Source: a virus | Lineage: Duplodnaviria; Caudoviricetes | Reading direction: 5' to 3' (one strand) | Length of the DNA stretch: 64,000 bases | Virus record (IMG/VR): IMGVR_UViG_3300035696_000004 | Coordinates: 128,001 to 192,000 of that record | Part shown: positions 10,569-20,796 of the stretch, piece by piece | Position numbering within the stretch: the first letter of the stretch is position 1 | How the letters are laid out: every line of letters begins with the position of its first letter | Position numbers and translations under genes: made by a program | The notes under the pieces: model-generated | What the model was told of the DNA's origin: nothing | The model's database searches: none | The model's input: the letters and a program-made list of their open reading frames with translations, nothing else

Positions 10569-11867
10569 TTATGCCAGAATGGTGAGTTCTTTTGCTTTGA
10601 CGAAGAGGTCGTTGGCGACCAAGCTTTCGAGTTCTTGTTGGAGGGTTTCGGCGGAGAGACGCTTCTTCTGACTGGACGAGAAGAAACCCCATACCACATC
10701 GAACCACTGACGGCGGTCATTGACAGCCTTCAGGTATTCATCCACGATAGCGATGTCCTCGAGGATCTTTTCGATGGCCTTTTTGTCCAGACCCTTGACC
10801 TTGAGGTTTTCGACCATCTCGTTGCGAATACGTTTTGCTCGCACGCCAGGGCGATCATAGATCGTCGAGCCCAGACCATCCACTGCCGTAAAGATCATCC
10901 AGCCAAACGCCGTGTACATACTCAGGAGTGTCGCTACGCCACCCGATACAGCCAGAGCGATCGTCAAGATGAGCAGGATCGTCTTGAGCGCTTCCATCGC
11001 AATGTACTTGCCTGTCGTACGGAACGAGATGTGACCCGCTTCCCGGCTCAACTTGTCCAGGAACGTCAGGAGATGGCGACCTGCACCGTAACGACCAGCG
11101 TACTGGTCAGCGAGTTGCTCCCAGTTGTTGGCGTCATAAATGTTGGTGCCGAGTGCGGAGATGGATTCTTTCACCGCTGCATTGACGATGACCGTTTCCA
11201 CGACCGTCTTGTTGTTCGACTTGGTGAGCTCTTGGACATCCAGGTCGGAGAGCTTCATGGCTTTGCGTGCAGCGATCAGGAGCGTTTCTTTTTCCGGTAC
11301 GCTATACGAACCATCCAGACCGCGTGATACCCCTGCCAAGACTTGGTTGTTCGTCATGGAACGACTGATGTACTCGAGGTACGTCATCAAGTGACCGACT
11401 TCATGCAACGTTGCTGCTGCAAATTCTTCGGACGTGTACTTCTTGTTGAGGAGCAAAGCGGACGATACGTAGATACGGGACTTCATTTCCGAGAACACAC
11501 CCGTCACCCGACCCGTCTGGATGTTGACCGATCCCCGAGCCATTTGTTCGGCATTCTTCACCATGGCCAGACCTTCACGGTCATGGAAGTAATGACGAAT
11601 GTAGCTATTGATCAGAGGGTTGTTGCGGTTGATATCCGGGATATCCACTTCAAAACCACCGTAGCCCAGTACGAGCTCGACATTCAAGCCGCCTTCTTTA
11701 CCGCCGGTGTGGTTCTTGATAATCGCTTGGACCATCGCGAGTTCATCAGAACCTTCCAGTTGATCAGCCGTCAGCGCCCGGATCTCATCATACGCCAGGA
11801 CGAGTTCCTTAAAAAACAAATCGCTCTGAAACGCTACCGCTTCAAAGCCCATTCCAAATTTTCTCAT
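10569..11867 (-). CDS. Virion protein with zincin metallopeptidase motif (gp84-like)
   Basis: 432 aa; AAATLHEVGH (HExxH), downstream EQLADQYA, and a C-terminal hydrophobic segment. Confidence 0.7.
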   Translation of the reverse strand: MRKFGMGFEAVAFQSDLFFKELVLAYDEIRALTADQLEGSDELAMVQAIIKNHTGGKEGGLNVELVLGYGGFEVDIPDINRNNPLINSYIRHYFHDREGLAMVKNAEQMARGSVNIQTGRVTGVFSEMKSRIYVSSALLLNKKYTSEEFAAATLHEVGHLMTYLEYISRSMTNNQVLAGVSRGLDGSYSVPEKETLLIAARKAMKLSDLDVQELTKSNNKTVVETVIVNAAVKESISALGTNIYDANNWEQLADQYAGRYGAGRHLLTFLDKLSREAGHISFRTTGKYIAMEALKTILLILTIALAVSGGVATLLSMYTAFGWMIFTAVDGLGSTIYDRPGVRAKRIRNEMVENLKVKGLDKKAIEKILEDIAIVDEYLKAVNDRRQWFDVVWGFFSSSQKKRLSAETLQQELESLVANDLFVKAKELTILA

Positions 11868-11950: not shown

Positions 11951-13681
11951 ATGGCTAAAATCCCAAAAGATGAGATTGCAGGTTACGAGTGCCGATTCGC
12001 TGTACACATCCCTCCACCTCCGGGGGAACACAACGACTACCACTTGATCAAAGAAGTCATTCACCTCAAGGATGGCTCTCGCGTCCCAAATATCCGCATC
12101 AAAGAGAATTTCAAACGTTCCTTCTACGTCACCAAGAAAGGGTTTCAAAACCACAAGAGCAAGAAGGAATGGGAAGACATCGATAAGCTCAACAAGTTCG
12201 AGTGCACGCAAAGTGAACTCCAATTTGCTGTCGCTAAAGCCCTGGGTGCAACAGGCAAGATGGACAAATGGGTACCGACCCCGATGCAAGTCGGTAAGAA
12301 AGGATCACGTAGCCCATATCTCTACGGTAGTGACATTCTCTCCACGGCGATCATCAAACGACAATACGCGGAAGCCTTCCCGACACTCAACACACCCTAT
12401 TCGGTAGCCTGTTTCGATACGGAAACCGATATGGAGAATGGCACCGGCGAAATTATCATGGCGACGCTCTCTTTTGGGAGTAAAGTCGTTACGGCTGTTC
12501 GGCGTGACTTTCTCAATGGTGTCGCGAATGCAGAAGAACGTGCTCGCGAGATGTTTCAACGTTATCTCGGCAATATCACGGATAGCGATGGCAATGTTAC
12601 AAACCTCGTCGAGAGTCGAAAGATCGATTGGGAACTCAAGATCGTCGACACAGAGATCGAGATCATCACGACGTGCTTTAAACGAGCACACGAGTGGAAG
12701 CCGGACTTTGTAGCTATCTTCAATATCGACTTCGATGTCCCGAAGATGCTCGATGCCTGCAAACGTGCCGGTGTAGATCCCAAAGATATCTTCTGCGATC
12801 CTTGTATACCGAAGGCCTATCGGTTCTTCAATTACGTTCAGGGACCGCGCCAAAAGAAGACAGCCAAAGGGGACATCACTCCGCTCAAACCCCATGAGCA
12901 GTGGCATACGGTCTTTTGTCCGGCGAGTTTCTACTTTATTGACGCGATGTGCGTCTATAAAAAGATCCGGAACGCTGAGCAGGAAGAGCCCTCGTACAGT
13001 TTGGATGCGTTGCTCAACAAGCATCTTGGGTTGCGTAAGCTGAACTTTACGGTGGCAGATGGTTTTGTTAAGGCCGACTGGCATATCTTCATGCAGACGC
13101 AATATAAGCTCGAATACGTCATTTACAACGTGTTCGACTGCGTCTCGATGGAGTTGCTCGATGAGAAGACAAAGGACTTGTCGATCGCGATGCCGATGCA
13201 GTCGGGAAGTTCTGACTTCTGCAACTTCAAGTCACAGCCTCGCCGTACGGTTGACAACTTGCATTTCGTCTGCCTGATGCGAGACAAGGTCATTGGGTCG
13301 ACGTCTGATGAGATGTCGGACGGATTCGATGGGTTGACTTTGGGCCTTGACGATTGGATCGTTACCCTGCCGGCACACTTGGTGATGGATAATGGTCTTT
13401 GTATCATCGAGGAATATCCGGCGATGCGCACCAATTGCCGGGCGCACATAGGTGATTTGGACGTTTCGGCAAGTTATCCAAATGGCGAGTGTGTCTTCAA
13501 TGTTTCGAAAGAGACGACCCATACAGAACTCTGTTCTATTGAGGGTGTGGACGAGGAACTCCAGCGATTGGAAGGTGTCAATCTCAGTGCAGGGCCAACG
13601 AATGCACTTGAAATTTGTCACCATCTAATGGGGATGCCCACGTTGGATGAGCTCCTCGAATCATTTGAAGATGCTGCCTAA
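11951..13681 (+). CDS. Split family-B DNA polymerase, exonuclease plus motif-A subunit (phiKZ gp82-like)
   Basis: 576 aa; Exo I CFDTETD, Exo II FNIDFD, Exo III YNVFD, PolB motif A DLDVSASYP. Confidence 0.85.
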   Translation: MAKIPKDEIAGYECRFAVHIPPPPGEHNDYHLIKEVIHLKDGSRVPNIRIKENFKRSFYVTKKGFQNHKSKKEWEDIDKLNKFECTQSELQFAVAKALGATGKMDKWVPTPMQVGKKGSRSPYLYGSDILSTAIIKRQYAEAFPTLNTPYSVACFDTETDMENGTGEIIMATLSFGSKVVTAVRRDFLNGVANAEERAREMFQRYLGNITDSDGNVTNLVESRKIDWELKIVDTEIEIITTCFKRAHEWKPDFVAIFNIDFDVPKMLDACKRAGVDPKDIFCDPCIPKAYRFFNYVQGPRQKKTAKGDITPLKPHEQWHTVFCPASFYFIDAMCVYKKIRNAEQEEPSYSLDALLNKHLGLRKLNFTVADGFVKADWHIFMQTQYKLEYVIYNVFDCVSMELLDEKTKDLSIAMPMQSGSSDFCNFKSQPRRTVDNLHFVCLMRDKVIGSTSDEMSDGFDGLTLGLDDWIVTLPAHLVMDNGLCIIEEYPAMRTNCRAHIGDLDVSASYPNGECVFNVSKETTHTELCSIEGVDEELQRLEGVNLSAGPTNALEICHHLMGMPTLDELLESFEDAA

Positions 13682-13691
13682 GGTGACATAT

Positions 13692-14069
13692 ATGGAAGAC
13701 CCTTACAGACTTTGGACAATTCAAATGGGTAGTTGGCGGGTAGCGAGGGATAGAGGGATCAAGTTTCTCGATATCACGGCAAAATCCGGCATTGCGCTGT
13801 TTGCTCCTGATTTCTCATTAGTCATGGGGTACAAGAACGGTTCTGTTAGTGAGGAGGAATACACTCGGCACTATCTAGACAAGATGATGAGGAGTCAGAG
13901 AAGCGCTCCTAATTACTGGAATAACCTGCAACGTTATCACGACATTGCGTTCGCGTGTTACTGTCCACCTGATGTCTTTTGTCATCGGCATTTGTTTAGA
14001 GATTTAGCAAGTGAACATTTGATCAAATTAGGTCACTCTGTTGAATTGATGGGTGAGTTACAAAAATAA
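13692..14069 (+). CDS. DUF488-like protein
   Basis: ATG 13692 after AAGGTG; FAPDF...EEEYTRHY and CYCPPDVFCHR motifs. Confidence 0.6.
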   Translation: MEDPYRLWTIQMGSWRVARDRGIKFLDITAKSGIALFAPDFSLVMGYKNGSVSEEEYTRHYLDKMMRSQRSAPNYWNNLQRYHDIAFACYCPPDVFCHRHLFRDLASEHLIKLGHSVELMGELQK

Positions 14070-14098: not shown

Positions 14099-14126
14099 CC
14101 CCCTGAGAGCCTAGGCTCTCAGGGGG
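14099..14126. terminator. Bidirectional stem-loop between convergent operons
   Basis: CCCCCTGAGAGC-ctag-GCTCTCAGGGGG, 12-bp stem; A-tract upstream gives a U-tail on the minus strand. Confidence 0.8.
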
Positions 14127-14371: not shown

Positions 14372-15079
14372 TCAGAACCCCATTGACATCATGAGGTCTA
14401 TGATTGTCCGAGTACCCGTGCGACCCAGATTCGGGAGCTTGAGCAGCGCTTCTTCTTTCACCACCATCAAGTCCAGCAGGTTGTTGATTCCTGCTGCGAT
14501 GAGGGTATTTTTCACCCGTTGTTGCAACGGCAGCCGTTCGACAGGTACATGGGCCAGCAAGCCGACAGGGATCGCACGACCCTGCACTTGACGCAAGGTG
14601 CGTTTCGTTTCATCGTACTCGATGAAACCGGACGAGTAATACGGGGCTTCGATCGTAGACGAACCCGTCAGGGTGTCCAAAACACGTTCCAAAGCCTCTT
14701 GAGTCGGGTAGAAGTACCGGACCCGTTTATCTTCGGCAGGCCCCAAAACCATGGCGGCATTTGTGTCGTCCTTGGCCGACGGGTCGATCTGACCTGCGTT
14801 TACGACCTTGCTCAGGTCCGACGCACTGATGATGCGTTTCAGATCTTCGAGGGGGATGTGGGTTTCGCTGGCCGCGATCCCATCCACATCGGACTGGGAG
14901 AGGACGTACAAGAACGGGAACACGCTCTCGTCCATATAGGTCAGCAGATGCATACCGCATTGCTTTTCGAGCTCTTCAATACCCGCTGCGTTTTTCACGT
15001 AGTAGGTGTTTTCGAAGACCTTGACACACGCGTCACCTGCCAAGATTTTGAGCAGGGGGGAATTGTTAGTTTTAGCCAT
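14372..15079 (-). CDS. Protein with C-terminal RNA polymerase alpha-CTD-like domain
   Basis: C-terminal PVERLPLQQRVKNTLIAAGINNLLDL...LLKLPNLGRTG aligns by eye with RpoA CTD ([26 protein letters not shown]...LLKTPNLGKKS). Start ATG 15079 after AAAGGA. Confidence 0.8.
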   Translation of the reverse strand: MAKTNNSPLLKILAGDACVKVFENTYYVKNAAGIEELEKQCGMHLLTYMDESVFPFLYVLSQSDVDGIAASETHIPLEDLKRIISASDLSKVVNAGQIDPSAKDDTNAAMVLGPAEDKRVRYFYPTQEALERVLDTLTGSSTIEAPYYSSGFIEYDETKRTLRQVQGRAIPVGLLAHVPVERLPLQQRVKNTLIAAGINNLLDLMVVKEEALLKLPNLGRTGTRTIIDLMMSMGF

Positions 15080-15575: not shown

Positions 15576-15601
15576 CACCCGGGGACCGAAGTCCCCGGGT
15601 G
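15576..15601. terminator. Intra-operon stem-loop
   Basis: CACCCGGGGAC-cgaa-GTCCCCGGGTG; UUCG loop on the minus strand. Confidence 0.65.
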
Positions 15602-15612
15602 TCGTGATGTGA

Positions 15613-15801
15613 TTATTTCTTGGCGGCGATGCTCGACAGGAACGCCTTGACGTAATCGTCAAGAAACTCGTTTTCACGAATATCCCTGAACTTGAGAACG
15701 AACCGCTTCAGGGTATCTTCCCGTAGCCCGGGGTGCACTTTAATCGCGGCTTCGAGTAGCGACTTGAGTGCGAGGGCTTGCGTTGTTGTCGATCTGCTCA
15801 T
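15613..15801 (-). CDS. Small hypothetical protein (62 aa)
   Basis: ATGA coupling with the upstream ORF. Confidence 0.65.
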   Translation of the reverse strand: MSRSTTTQALALKSLLEAAIKVHPGLREDTLKRFVLKFRDIRENEFLDDYVKAFLSSIAAKK

Positions 15802-16016
15802 GGTGCGGTTTCGGCCTGCTGTTCTTTCTCCAGCAGATCCGCGTACTCCGTGAACATTTTTGCATCGCGAGAAAACTTCGAGTACGCGATATCACCCGGA
15901 CCGCAGGCCTCTGCCATTTCTTTCGACATGTTAGCCAGATCGCGCGCTTCGGCGAGGGTGAGACCGGGAACCTTGGATTTGTAAAGGACGAGACAACCGA
16001 GTTCGGCTGGAGTCAT
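15798..16016 (-). CDS. Small hypothetical protein (72 aa)
   Basis: AGGAG RBS before ATG. Confidence 0.7.
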   Translation of the reverse strand: MTPAELGCLVLYKSKVPGLTLAEARDLANMSKEMAEACGPGDIAYSKFSRDAKMFTEYADLLEKEQQAETAP

Positions 16017-16042: not shown

Positions 16043-16531
16043 TCAGTTGAAATGGTCGTGGGCTTCTTTCAGACCACATCCCATGGTCGCGCGGTAAAAT
16101 TTCACCGCTTCGATCTTTTTACCTTGTGCGATGAGCTCTTTGCACTGGCGGTCGAGGTCGTCGACACTGATGGTGCTCGCAGGTAGCATCTGCTTACGCA
16201 GTTCATCAAGCTCACGGCGATAGCTGTTGATCACCGTGCTGAGGAGGCTCTCGTATGCCATCTTTTCTTCCATGGTCGGAGGATTCGATGCGAAGGGGAG
16301 TTGTTCGACCTCCTTTACCGTTTCTTGAAGAATCTTGACCAGAGAGTTCGGACTGTCGGTCAGATCGTACGGTCCCGGGCTCACGTGCTTCTTGACGAGG
16401 GCGCCTAGGACGATCAGAGGTTTGGCTACCTCGAGCTTCTCCTCGAGCTCCATGGTTTTGGCAGCTTGCTTGGCCAACTGCTCCCGGACTTCAGCGAGGG
16501 TGAGGCAGGTTGAAACAAAAGATTCGGACAT
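16043..16531 (-). CDS. Coiled-coil protein with C-terminal ribosomal L7/L12-CTD-like motif
   Basis: KKIEAVKFYRATMGCGLKEAHDHFN resembles bL12 K.I.VIK.VR..TGLGLKEAK; AAGGAG RBS. Confidence 0.7.
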   Translation of the reverse strand: MSESFVSTCLTLAEVREQLAKQAAKTMELEEKLEVAKPLIVLGALVKKHVSPGPYDLTDSPNSLVKILQETVKEVEQLPFASNPPTMEEKMAYESLLSTVINSYRRELDELRKQMLPASTISVDDLDRQCKELIAQGKKIEAVKFYRATMGCGLKEAHDHFN

Positions 16532-16563
16532 TGGGTACTCCTTGTTAGTAGAGAGTGGTGCCG

Positions 16564-18737: not shown

Positions 18738-18923
18738 CTAGCGCCAGTCAGACGGGCGATGTACGACGCCGCCTTCGGGTACGTAATGGACACTACCGGG
18801 TTCGCAGTAGGCGCAGGTGCGATATCCCGGTCCGAGGTATACTTGGCGCGCCGGAACAACAACGCAGCCTGTGAAGAGGCTGCAAAGCAGCCCAATGAGC
18901 ATGATCTTAAGTGCGGTTTTCAT
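18738..18923 (-). CDS. Small predicted lipoprotein
   Basis: MKTALKIMLIGLLCSLFTG|C: positive N-terminus, hydrophobic core, lipobox; GGAG RBS. Confidence 0.7.
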   Translation of the reverse strand: MKTALKIMLIGLLCSLFTGCVVVPARQVYLGPGYRTCAYCEPGSVHYVPEGGVVHRPSDWR

Positions 18924-20670: not shown

Positions 20671-20750
20671 GATTGTTACTCCTTACTATCGTGGTAAAAG
20701 ATCGACATTAGTTGTACGTTCTTGCATGATTACTACCTAAAGTCATGCGA

Positions 20751-20780
20751 GTAATATGTCAGTGAAATAATCTGGAATCG
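20751..20780 (-). promoter_or_regulatory. Phage early-type promoter motif
   Basis: Minus strand CGATTCCAGATTATTTCACTGACATATTAC; matches five other copies and ends in a TATATTAC-like element known from phiKZ early promoters. Confidence 0.7.
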
Positions 20781-20796
20781 TCCTTTTTGAGGGCAT

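What the first reader, a model, noticed from the sequence alone, without database searches (positions are those of the whole stretch)
16043..16531. Ribosomal bL12 C-terminal-domain mimic on a coiled-coil stalk
Seen: C-terminal KKIEAVKFYRATMGCGLKEA matches the bL12 helix-turn-helix that contacts translational GTPases; an N-terminal heptad region is present; the bL12 N-terminal dimerisation domain is not evident. Established: bL12-like genes occur in phages. Inference: it may bind EF-Tu/EF-G/IF2 to modulate translation, or act as a decoy. It shares an operon with the alpha-CTD protein.
Basis: partly seen in the sequence, partly recalled or inferred. Interest (0 to 1): 0.6.

Follow-up and report, generated by a model that had tools for sequence, protein, structure and literature searches.

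The report
Miniature ribosome-stalk motif in jumbo phage
A small early gene of a peat-bog giant phage ends in a 40-residue, three-helix module that copies only the factor-binding helices of ribosomal stalk protein bL12; such phage genes were reported in 2019, so this is a real but ordinary new member whose function is untested.

Summary
The ORF (16043-16531, minus, 162 aa) and its motif are real, but it is not a bL12 C-terminal domain. Only helices 4-5 are present (Pfam L12 model positions 9-32 of 67, below cut-off), and the protein ends there. Residues 123-162 belong to a separate ~40-aa three-helix 'mini-L12' module (57 bits to a leave-one-out profile; true L12 34, shuffles under 10). The module occurs as 2-6 tandem copies in many bacterial, mostly membrane-anchored proteins and singly in many phage orphans. 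It keeps the bL12 GTPase-binding face (K65, K70, R73 equivalents; K84 is His here). Binding to translational GTPases is plausible: a fold with EF-G gave weak support, and the motif is fused to an RF-1 domain in Pseudomonas phages. The N-terminal 115 residues are helical, heptad-like and without relatives. The gene lies in a probable early operon, but a terminator-family hairpin separates it from the alpha-CTD gene. Mizuno 2019 already lists phage 'bL12' proteins with the same partial motif, one on a coiled coil, and this scan found similar genes on other DNA before. Best reading (about 50%): a non-ribosomal tether for host translation factors. New member of a known kind.

The parts
16043..16531 (-). 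ORF, 162 aa (P0001): orphan helical N-terminal part plus C-terminal mini-L12 module; 11th of 13 genes behind the promoter at 20746-20781
   Evidence: GC3 0.66 like neighbouring and core genes
16538..16543 (-). Shine-Dalgarno-like AAGGAG, 6 nt before the ATG
   Evidence: sequence
16382..16525 (-). Long N-terminal helix, residues 3-50; heptad-like at 10-37 (5 of 8 a/d positions L/I/V/M/F against 15% elsewhere); no relatives found
16187..16351 (-). Amphipathic helices 61-76 and 87-115 (second heptad-like stretch) joined by a Pro-rich linker; no relatives found
16127..16165 (-). Module helix 1 (residues 123-135): family-specific helix that stands where bL12 has strand beta-1
16046..16120 (-). Module helices 2-3 (residues 138-162), equivalent to bL12 helices 4-5 (E. 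coli 64-88); K139, I140, V143, K144, R147, L154, K155, E156 match; H158 replaces K84
20746..20781 (-). Member of a repeated AT-rich promoter-like family (about 13 clear copies in the genome, all minus strand); probable early (virion RNA polymerase) promoter of this gene array
   Evidence: early assignment inferred from PMC7598289
15576..15601 (-). 11-bp G+C-rich hairpin with UUCG loop and CTATT tail, one of 44 such hairpins in the genome; probable terminator between this gene array and the alpha-CTD gene
   Evidence: z -6.2
14372..15079 (-). Neighbouring 235-aa protein with RNA polymerase alpha-CTD domain; downstream of the hairpin, not shown to be part of the same unit
   Evidence: (PF03118, 32.7 bits, cut-off 23.8)

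Best explanation
An early accessory protein of a nucleus-forming (phiKZ-like) jumbo phage that carries one 'mini-L12' module. Shown: the module is a three-helix unit whose helices 2-3 are homologous to bL12 helices 4-5, the part of bL12 that binds IF2, EF-Tu, EF-G and RF3; it has neither the uL10 anchor nor the uL11-binding half of the CTD, so it is not a ribosomal protein. Inferred: helix 1 replaces the beta-sheet as the packing partner and leaves the basic face free; that face binds the acidic G-domain surface of host translational GTPases weakly; the N-terminal helices oligomerise or dock on a partner and so give avidity or a location. The protein then works as an off-ribosome tether that holds host translation factors near phage translation early in infection. 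It is a dispensable, lineage-specific modulator, not a core gene.
For: Profile of the module hits only bL12 64-90 in the PDB (hhalign 96% over 32 columns). In 422 bacterial repeats the exposed positions are the best kept: K65 86%, I66 89%, K70 93%, R73 96%, L80 99%, K84 95%; K84 cannot come from query bias because the query has His. Buried positions differ from bL12 (V68 is Ala in about 100%, V72 mostly Tyr), as expected for a new packing helix. AlphaFold2: three helices, pLDDT 83.5 alone and 94-98 in the full protein; matching predicted folds in viral proteins (rmsd 0.5-0.6 A over 35-37 residues) and bacterial clusters (TM 0.74-0.82). Helices 4-5 are the GTPase site (PMC6753160). Co-fold with E. 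coli EF-G 1-290: weak support, score 0.59, best control 0.00, runs agree in at least 84% of contacts, partner pLDDT at least 82; that mark was reached by 58 of 80 solved complexes and 2 of 110 mismatches, but at 0.60 or under by only 7 solved and both mismatches, and it may come from memory of solved bL12-EF-G complexes. The motif is fused to an RF-1 domain in P. syringae phages (PF00472 58 and 50 bits). Bacterial relatives carry 2-6 copies on flexible linkers, mostly behind a membrane anchor with positive-inside topology (72 of 75), like a multi-headed cytoplasmic stalk. Early-type promoter upstream.
Against: No binding or expression data. K84 equivalent is His, V87 is Phe and helix 3 ends at once. 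Only one module per chain, and free bL12 heads bind factors weakly (own knowledge). Three bacterial gene neighbourhoods showed no translation-related context. Many bacterial carriers are membrane proteins with sensor-like outer domains, which suggests a target other than translation factors. The tether role of the N-terminal part is pure inference: it has no relatives and the full model has pTM 0.44. The host is unknown; EF-G was an E. coli stand-in.
Confidence: 0.5

Rival explanations
1. Decoy or inhibitor: an oligomer of the protein soaks up a host translational GTPase, or shields it from a host abortive-infection enzyme that attacks EF-Tu, and so slows host translation or blocks defence.
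For: Same binding face as in the best explanation; early-type promoter; heptad-like helices could multimerise it; other host-mimic domains lie nearby (alpha-CTD).
Against: The phage needs the same factors. One weak head per chain against very abundant factors (own knowledge). Expression of a phage bL12-domain protein did not disturb 70S profiles (PMC6375957). Host bacteria carry the module in 2-6 copies, which fits poorly with an inhibitor.
Confidence: 0.15
2. The module shares ancestry with bL12 helices 4-5 but is a general interaction unit with another target (for example a membrane protease or chaperone complex, RNA, or other copies of itself); the phage borrowed it from the bacterial membrane-protein family.
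For: 106 of 148 bacterial carriers have a predicted membrane helix, some with zinc ribbon and outer domains; no translation genes nearby in three loci; the phage copy is closer to this family (57 bits) than real bL12 is (34 bits); very varied fusion partners in viruses.
Against: The most conserved surface residues are exactly those of the factor-binding face; RF-1 fusion; weak EF-G pass.
Confidence: 0.25
3. A decaying or near-neutral passenger: a captured module at the end of an orphan gene, with a damaged third helix and little function.
For: K84 to His, V87 to Phe, stop right after the helix; no match in five related jumbo phages (no positive control in those calls); no relatives of the N-terminal part.
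Against: Intact ORF with ribosome-binding site and genome-typical GC3 in both parts (0.68 and 0.64); all invariant family positions kept; His at the same place in the full-length bL12 domain of phage EK8 rIIB.
Confidence: 0.08
4. A true phage ribosomal protein that replaces host bL12 on the stalk.
For: A Salmonella phage bL12-domain protein was seen in ribosome fractions by one peptide (PMC6375957).
Against: No dimerisation domain, no strands, no helix 6, no K95/L106 that bind uL11 (PMC3505967); in the same 2019 paper the tagged protein did not pull down ribosomes.
Confidence: 0.02

Closest known systems
Virus-encoded bL12-domain proteins of Mizuno et al. 2019 (PMC6375957), above all Sulfitobacter phage phiCB2047-B AGH07436 (126 aa), Dinoroseobacter phage DFL12phi1 (106 aa) and Ralstonia phage RSB3 BAN92321 (98 aa)
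   Same: Small phage proteins without the bL12 anchor. These three also match only the helix 4-5 part of PF00542 (model 5-38, 8-36, 6-40 of 67). AGH07436 has the same layout: coiled-coil-like N-terminus, motif at the very end.
   Different: This copy has the full family helix 1 and scores much higher to the repeat-module profile (57 bits against 24-33); different N-terminal sequence; host virus is a 220-kb nucleus-forming jumbo phage, whereas the cultured examples of 2019 were under 80 kb. The N4-like rIIB fusion (EK8) holds a complete CTD (1-67/67), which this does not.
Bacterial non-ribosomal 'ribosomal protein L7/L12' repeat proteins, NCBIfam PRK06771 (NF005269) and Pfam DUF6793 overlap
   Same: Same ~40-aa three-helix module; best NCBIfam hit is PRK06771 positions 53-87 (E 1e-4); 884 proteins match residues ~120-161; Atlas clusters at TM 0.74-0.82.
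   Different: They carry 2-6 copies about 59 residues apart, mostly with a membrane anchor; the phage protein has one copy, no membrane helix, and His for the 95%-conserved Lys. Their function is also unknown.
Ribosomal protein bL12 (L7/L12; PF00542, PF16320, TIGR00855)
   Same: Helices 4-5 with the basic factor-binding face (E. coli 64-88).
   Different: No N-terminal dimer domain, no hinge, no beta-sheet, no helix 6, no uL11 site; different core (Ala and Tyr at V68 and V72); below all curated cut-offs.
RF-1-domain / L12-motif fusion proteins of P. syringae phages (phiPsa267 QNN99931, VCM CUR44383)
   Same: Small phage protein near a genome end with the helix 4-5 motif as its last domain.
   Different: Their N-terminal part is an RF-1 domain (GGM in place of GGQ); here it is an orphan helical region.

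Membership tests
Ribosomal protein bL12 | N-terminal dimerisation / uL10-binding domain (PF16320) | tested here: not met
   No hit in P0001 at E up to 1; Salmonella bL12 gives 64 bits
Ribosomal protein bL12 | Complete CTD, three helices and three strands (PF00542 1-67, at or above 25.9 bits) | tested here: not met
   Model 9-32 only, 16 bits; predicted structure has no strand; protein ends at the equivalent of residue 88
Ribosomal protein bL12 | Factor-binding face on helices 4-5 (K65, V66, I69, K70, R73, L80, K84; residue list from own knowledge, region from PMC6753160) | tested here: inconclusive
   K65, K70, R73, L80, K81, E82 kept, V66/I69 conservative, K84 is His; EF-G co-fold weak pass
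Ribosomal protein bL12 | uL11-binding surface (K95, L106, cleft between helices 4 and 6; PMC3505967) | tested here: not met
   These residues lie beyond the stop codon
Ribosomal protein bL12 | Incorporation into 50S and stimulation of GTPases | not testable with these tools
   needs bench work
Phage bL12-domain proteins (Mizuno 2019) | Phage protein with detectable homology to PF00542, embedded in unrelated sequence, no anchor | tested here: met
   hhalign 96.3%, E 2e-9; PDB bL12 hits to 5.6e-10 with the profile; jumbo phage genome
Mini-L12 three-helix repeat module (defined here; overlaps PRK06771, DUF6793) | Amphipathic helix 1 with conserved Leu-hydrophobic-x-x-Gly before the motif | tested here: met
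   L133, I134, G137 match columns of 81%, 58% Leu and 83%; helix 123-135
Mini-L12 three-helix repeat module (defined here; overlaps PRK06771, DUF6793) | Ala at bL12 V68, aromatic at V72, invariant Arg and Leu | tested here: met
   A142, Y146, R147, L154; 56.8 bits leave-one-out
Mini-L12 three-helix repeat module (defined here; overlaps PRK06771, DUF6793) | Tandem copies and membrane anchor, as in most bacterial carriers found | tested here: not met
   One copy, none elsewhere in the genome; single-copy forms are common in viruses, and the search favours multi-copy proteins, so this is not taken as defining
PRK06771 equivalog | Full-length score at or above 90 bits | tested here: not met
   22.9 bits, positions 53-87 of 97 only
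Coiled-coil stalk | Continuous heptad repeat forming a dimeric coiled coil | tested here: inconclusive
   Two short heptad-like stretches broken by Pro-rich linkers; model pTM 0.44 without alignment for this part; oligomer state not tested

The most novel reading that the evidence does not exclude
The helix 4-5 factor-binding face of bL12 exists as an autonomous, so far undescribed three-helix module. Bacteria use tandem copies on membrane anchors as ribosome-independent 'stalks' that gather translational GTPases at the membrane, and phages graft single copies onto varied proteins (coiled coils, RF-1 domains, rIIB) to steer these factors. Several published 'phage ribosomal protein bL12' genes are then this module, not ribosomal proteins, and this jumbo-phage protein is an early host-translation adaptor.
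Probability: 0.3. Interest if true: 0.7.

Novelty: new member of a known kind. Interest (0 to 1): 0.36.

Why it matters
For this gene alone, little: phage bL12-like genes with the same partial motif, one on a coiled coil, are published. The wider point is that the motif belongs to a free three-helix module, usually mis-annotated as ribosomal protein L7/L12, that is common in phages and in bacterial membrane proteins. If it binds translational GTPases, it gives a small, testable handle on how phages steer host translation and corrects counts of 'viral ribosomal proteins'.

Tried and rejected
Word-based homologue searches found only the protein itself; no full-length relative in viral contigs or cultured phages. 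The RSL2 hit to residues 35-74 lies on the opposite strand of an annotated gene and the Vibrio phage exonuclease hits are coiled-coil noise. Atlas searches of the whole protein and of residues 1-118 gave nothing usable. Fold searches of the PDB gave only generic three-helix matches (best Z 6.0 for the module, 6.3 for the full model); bL12 was not listed, which shows nothing either way for so small a helical query. A frameshifted or read-through remainder of the CTD: rejected, the next gene starts 26 nt after the stop and reads show no variant. A second degenerate module in the next gene (15798-16016): 2.3 bits, within shuffle range, rejected. No match in FLC9, RP12, FLC1-1B, Xoo-sp14, RTH11 or RSL2; searches had no positive control. 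No RNA holder listed. Sigma-70 promoter scan at chance level. Primary mutagenesis papers (PMC5939111, PMC1356325, PMC7401292) were not held, so single-residue roles rest on my own knowledge. Ten literature searches found no description of the repeat module; the library is partial. Conservation in the viral-contig set is biased by the search pattern and was not used.

Full report
Setting. The window lies in a 219,772-base single contig with a 127-base terminal overlap, so a complete circular assembly, without tRNA genes. The polymerase-like gene at 11951-13681 is closest to Burkholderia phage FLC9 (58%) and Ralstonia phages RP12/RP31 (52%), with the flanking core genes in the same order, so this is a phiKZ-like jumbo phage. 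The holders are peat metagenomes (two of them may be the source). The host is unknown; the nearest cultured relatives infect Burkholderiales.

Observation. The ORF 16043-16531 (-) encodes 162 aa with a clear ribosome-binding site. The identical protein is called on six contigs, and a run from another study covers the C-terminal end and stop with no difference. GC3 is 0.66, like its neighbours, in both the N-terminal part and the module. The quoted motif is at residues 138-157. Against Pfam it gives Ribosomal_L12 at 16 bits, E 0.015, model 9-32 of 67, under the 25.9 cut-off; no dimerisation domain. NCBIfam gives PRK06771 (E 1e-4) ahead of TIGR00855 (E 0.02), both far under cut-off. PDB sequence hits to Thermus L7/L12 are E about 0.8 over 25 residues. 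On these alone the match is marginal.

What the C-terminus really is. A full-library phmmer search returned 884 proteins at E up to 0.001; of the 150 listed, all but one spurious repeat protein match only residues about 120-161. They hold 2-6 copies of one ~40-residue unit, median spacing 59 (21, 95, 27, 1 and 4 proteins with 2, 3, 4, 5 and 6 copies); multi-copy proteins rank first because scores add up. Named members are bacterial and are labelled 'ribosomal protein L7/L12', though each repeat matches only PF00542 positions about 9-37. A profile built without the phage protein scores it 56.8 bits over residues 124-159; real Salmonella bL12 scores 34.1 and only over the helix pair; the best of 2000 shuffles scores 9.8; no second copy exists in the genome. 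AlphaFold2 gives three helices, 123-135, 139-150 and 154-161, no strand (pLDDT 83.5 alone, 94-98 in the full chain). The same predicted fold occurs in viral proteins (rmsd 0.5-0.6 A) and bacterial clusters (TM 0.74-0.82); the PDB gave only generic bundles. Homology to bL12 is firm but limited to E. coli residues 64-90 (hhalign 96.3%; profile against PDB to E 5.6e-10). So the unit is a stand-alone 'mini-L12' module: bL12 helices 4-5 plus a new leading helix in place of the sheet and helix 6.

The binding face. bL12 binds IF2, EF-Tu, EF-G and RF3 through a positive patch on helices 4 and 5 (PMC6753160); K65, V66, I69, K70, R73 and K84 are the usual residues named (own knowledge). In 422 bacterial repeats these columns read K 86%, I 89%, I 85%, K 93%, R 96% and K 95%, with L80 99%. 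Selection by the query inflates most of these, but not K84, where the query has His. Buried columns differ from bL12 (V68 to Ala in about 100%, V72 mostly Tyr), which fits a repacked core with the outer face kept (inference; I had no coordinates to measure this). The phage copy keeps K139, I140, V143, K144, R147, L154, K155 and E156, but has His158 for K84 and Phe161 for V87 and ends at 162. His also stands there in the complete bL12 domain of phage EK8 rIIB. The uL11-binding residues K95 and L106 (PMC3505967) are absent. A co-fold of the module with E. coli EF-G 1-290 gave weak support: 0.59 against a best control of 0.00, at least 84% shared contacts, partner pLDDT at least 82. The mark was reached by 58 of 80 solved complexes and 2 of 110 mismatches, but at 0.60 or under by only 7 solved ones and both mismatches, and bL12-EF-G complexes are solved, so the pass may show likeness only.

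Context from other carriers. In cultured phages a bacterial repeat finds 112-133 records, and 24 viral contigs were confirmed; the module sits at the start, middle or end of unrelated 90-500-aa proteins. In P. syringae phages of the phiPsa374 group the motif follows an RF-1 domain above cut-off, an independent tie to translation. Of 148 bacterial repeat proteins, 80 have an N-terminal and 26 a C-terminal predicted membrane helix, and 72 of 75 scored N-anchored ones have more Lys/Arg after the helix, so the repeats probably face the cytoplasm. Three bacterial neighbourhoods gave no common theme. Five related jumbo phages and RSL2 gave no match, so the gene looks lineage-specific, with the caveat that searches lacked a positive control.

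N-terminal part. Residues 1-115 have no relatives. They are predicted as helices 3-50, 61-76 and 87-115, with heptad-like patterns at 10-37 and 87-117 and Pro-rich breaks. 'Coiled-coil stalk' is a fair guess, not a result (pTM 0.44, no alignment for this part, no distinctive fold match).

Transcription. The gene is the 11th of 13 tightly packed minus-strand genes behind a copy of an AT-rich motif family at 20746-20781, with about 13 clear copies in the genome; such motifs are early promoters in RNA-polymerase-encoding jumbo phages (PMC7598289), so early expression is inferred. The array ends at an 11-bp hairpin at 15576-15601 (z -6.2), one of 44 similar hairpins. The alpha-CTD gene (PF03118 above cut-off) lies two genes beyond it with no family promoter in between, so it may be reached by read-through, which is reported in a relative (PMC11512511), but a shared operon is not shown.

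Mechanism. Best (0.5): an off-ribosome tether whose module binds translational GTPases weakly and whose helical part gives avidity or location. Shown: homology, fold prediction, conserved face, lack of ribosome anchor. Inferred: binding, oligomer, benefit to the phage. Rivals: another target for the module (0.25), decoy or anti-defence shield (0.15), decaying passenger (0.08), true stalk protein (0.02).

Comparison with what is known. Mizuno et al. 2019 (PMC6375957) list seven cultured phages with bL12 domains, variably placed in unrelated proteins. Three of them checked here match only model positions 5-40, and Sulfitobacter phage phiCB2047-B AGH07436 has the same layout of coiled-coil-like N-terminus and terminal motif. 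So the kind is published; it works like the bL12 head but is not a bL12. This scan also noted similar phage genes on other DNA. What I did not find described, in a partial library, is the module as a separate fold with tandem membrane-anchored bacterial forms. Verdict: real, new member of a known kind, interest 0.36; the module-level reading (probability 0.3) would deserve 0.7.

Noticed in passing
L049:1231-1623, L050:1225-1704: P. syringae phages (phiPsa267, VCM and many relatives) encode a 130-159-aa RF-1-domain protein with GGM in place of the catalytic GGQ, fused to the bL12 helix 4-5 motif: a possible release-factor mimic or ribosome-rescue modulator.
   Followed up: partly
P0002-P0150, e.g. 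P0010, P0061, P0062; L044, L045: A large bacterial family with 2-6 tandem mini-L12 modules, mostly behind an N-terminal membrane helix or between a zinc ribbon and a membrane helix with an outer domain; annotated wrongly as ribosomal protein L7/L12.
   Followed up: partly
L002:2764-3117 (KF147891.1, around 10779-10850, minus): Pseudomonas jumbo phage PaBG has an ORF of about 117 aa, not annotated in this record, with a diverged copy of the motif (E 1.1e-6).
   Followed up: partly
L005:1474-1740, L051:777-1097: In N4-like roseophages R7L and DFL12phi1 the motif gene directly follows and overlaps the gene for RNA polymerase subunit 1.
   Followed up: no
window 14372-15079 (-): Alpha-CTD domain confirmed above the Pfam cut-off; the likely start is 15079 (235 aa, good ribosome-binding site) rather than 15121.
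   Followed up: partly
whole genome; window 8587, 14115, 15591, 20812, 28969, 33258, 41464: 44 G+C-rich intergenic hairpins of 9-17 bp, many followed by CTATG, TTATG or CTATT instead of a T run; the TATG matches the phiKZ late start motif, so some may be terminator and start site in one.
   Followed up: partly
window 15798-16016 (-): The next gene (72 aa) has a short stretch that looks like the end of the module (GLTLAEARD) and like the start of P0001; not significant against shuffles.
   Followed up: yes
window 18738-18923 (-): 61-aa ORF with a signal peptide and lipobox-like Cys followed by a Cys-rich tail, in the same early array.
   Followed up: no
window 13647-14069 (+): DUF488-N3a (PF22751) gene, convergent with the alpha-CTD array at a shared hairpin near 14110.
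   Followed up: no
L003:2566-4650: Escherichia phage EK8 rIIB holds a complete bL12 CTD (PF00542 1-67) with His at the K84 position, the same change as in this gene.
   Followed up: partly
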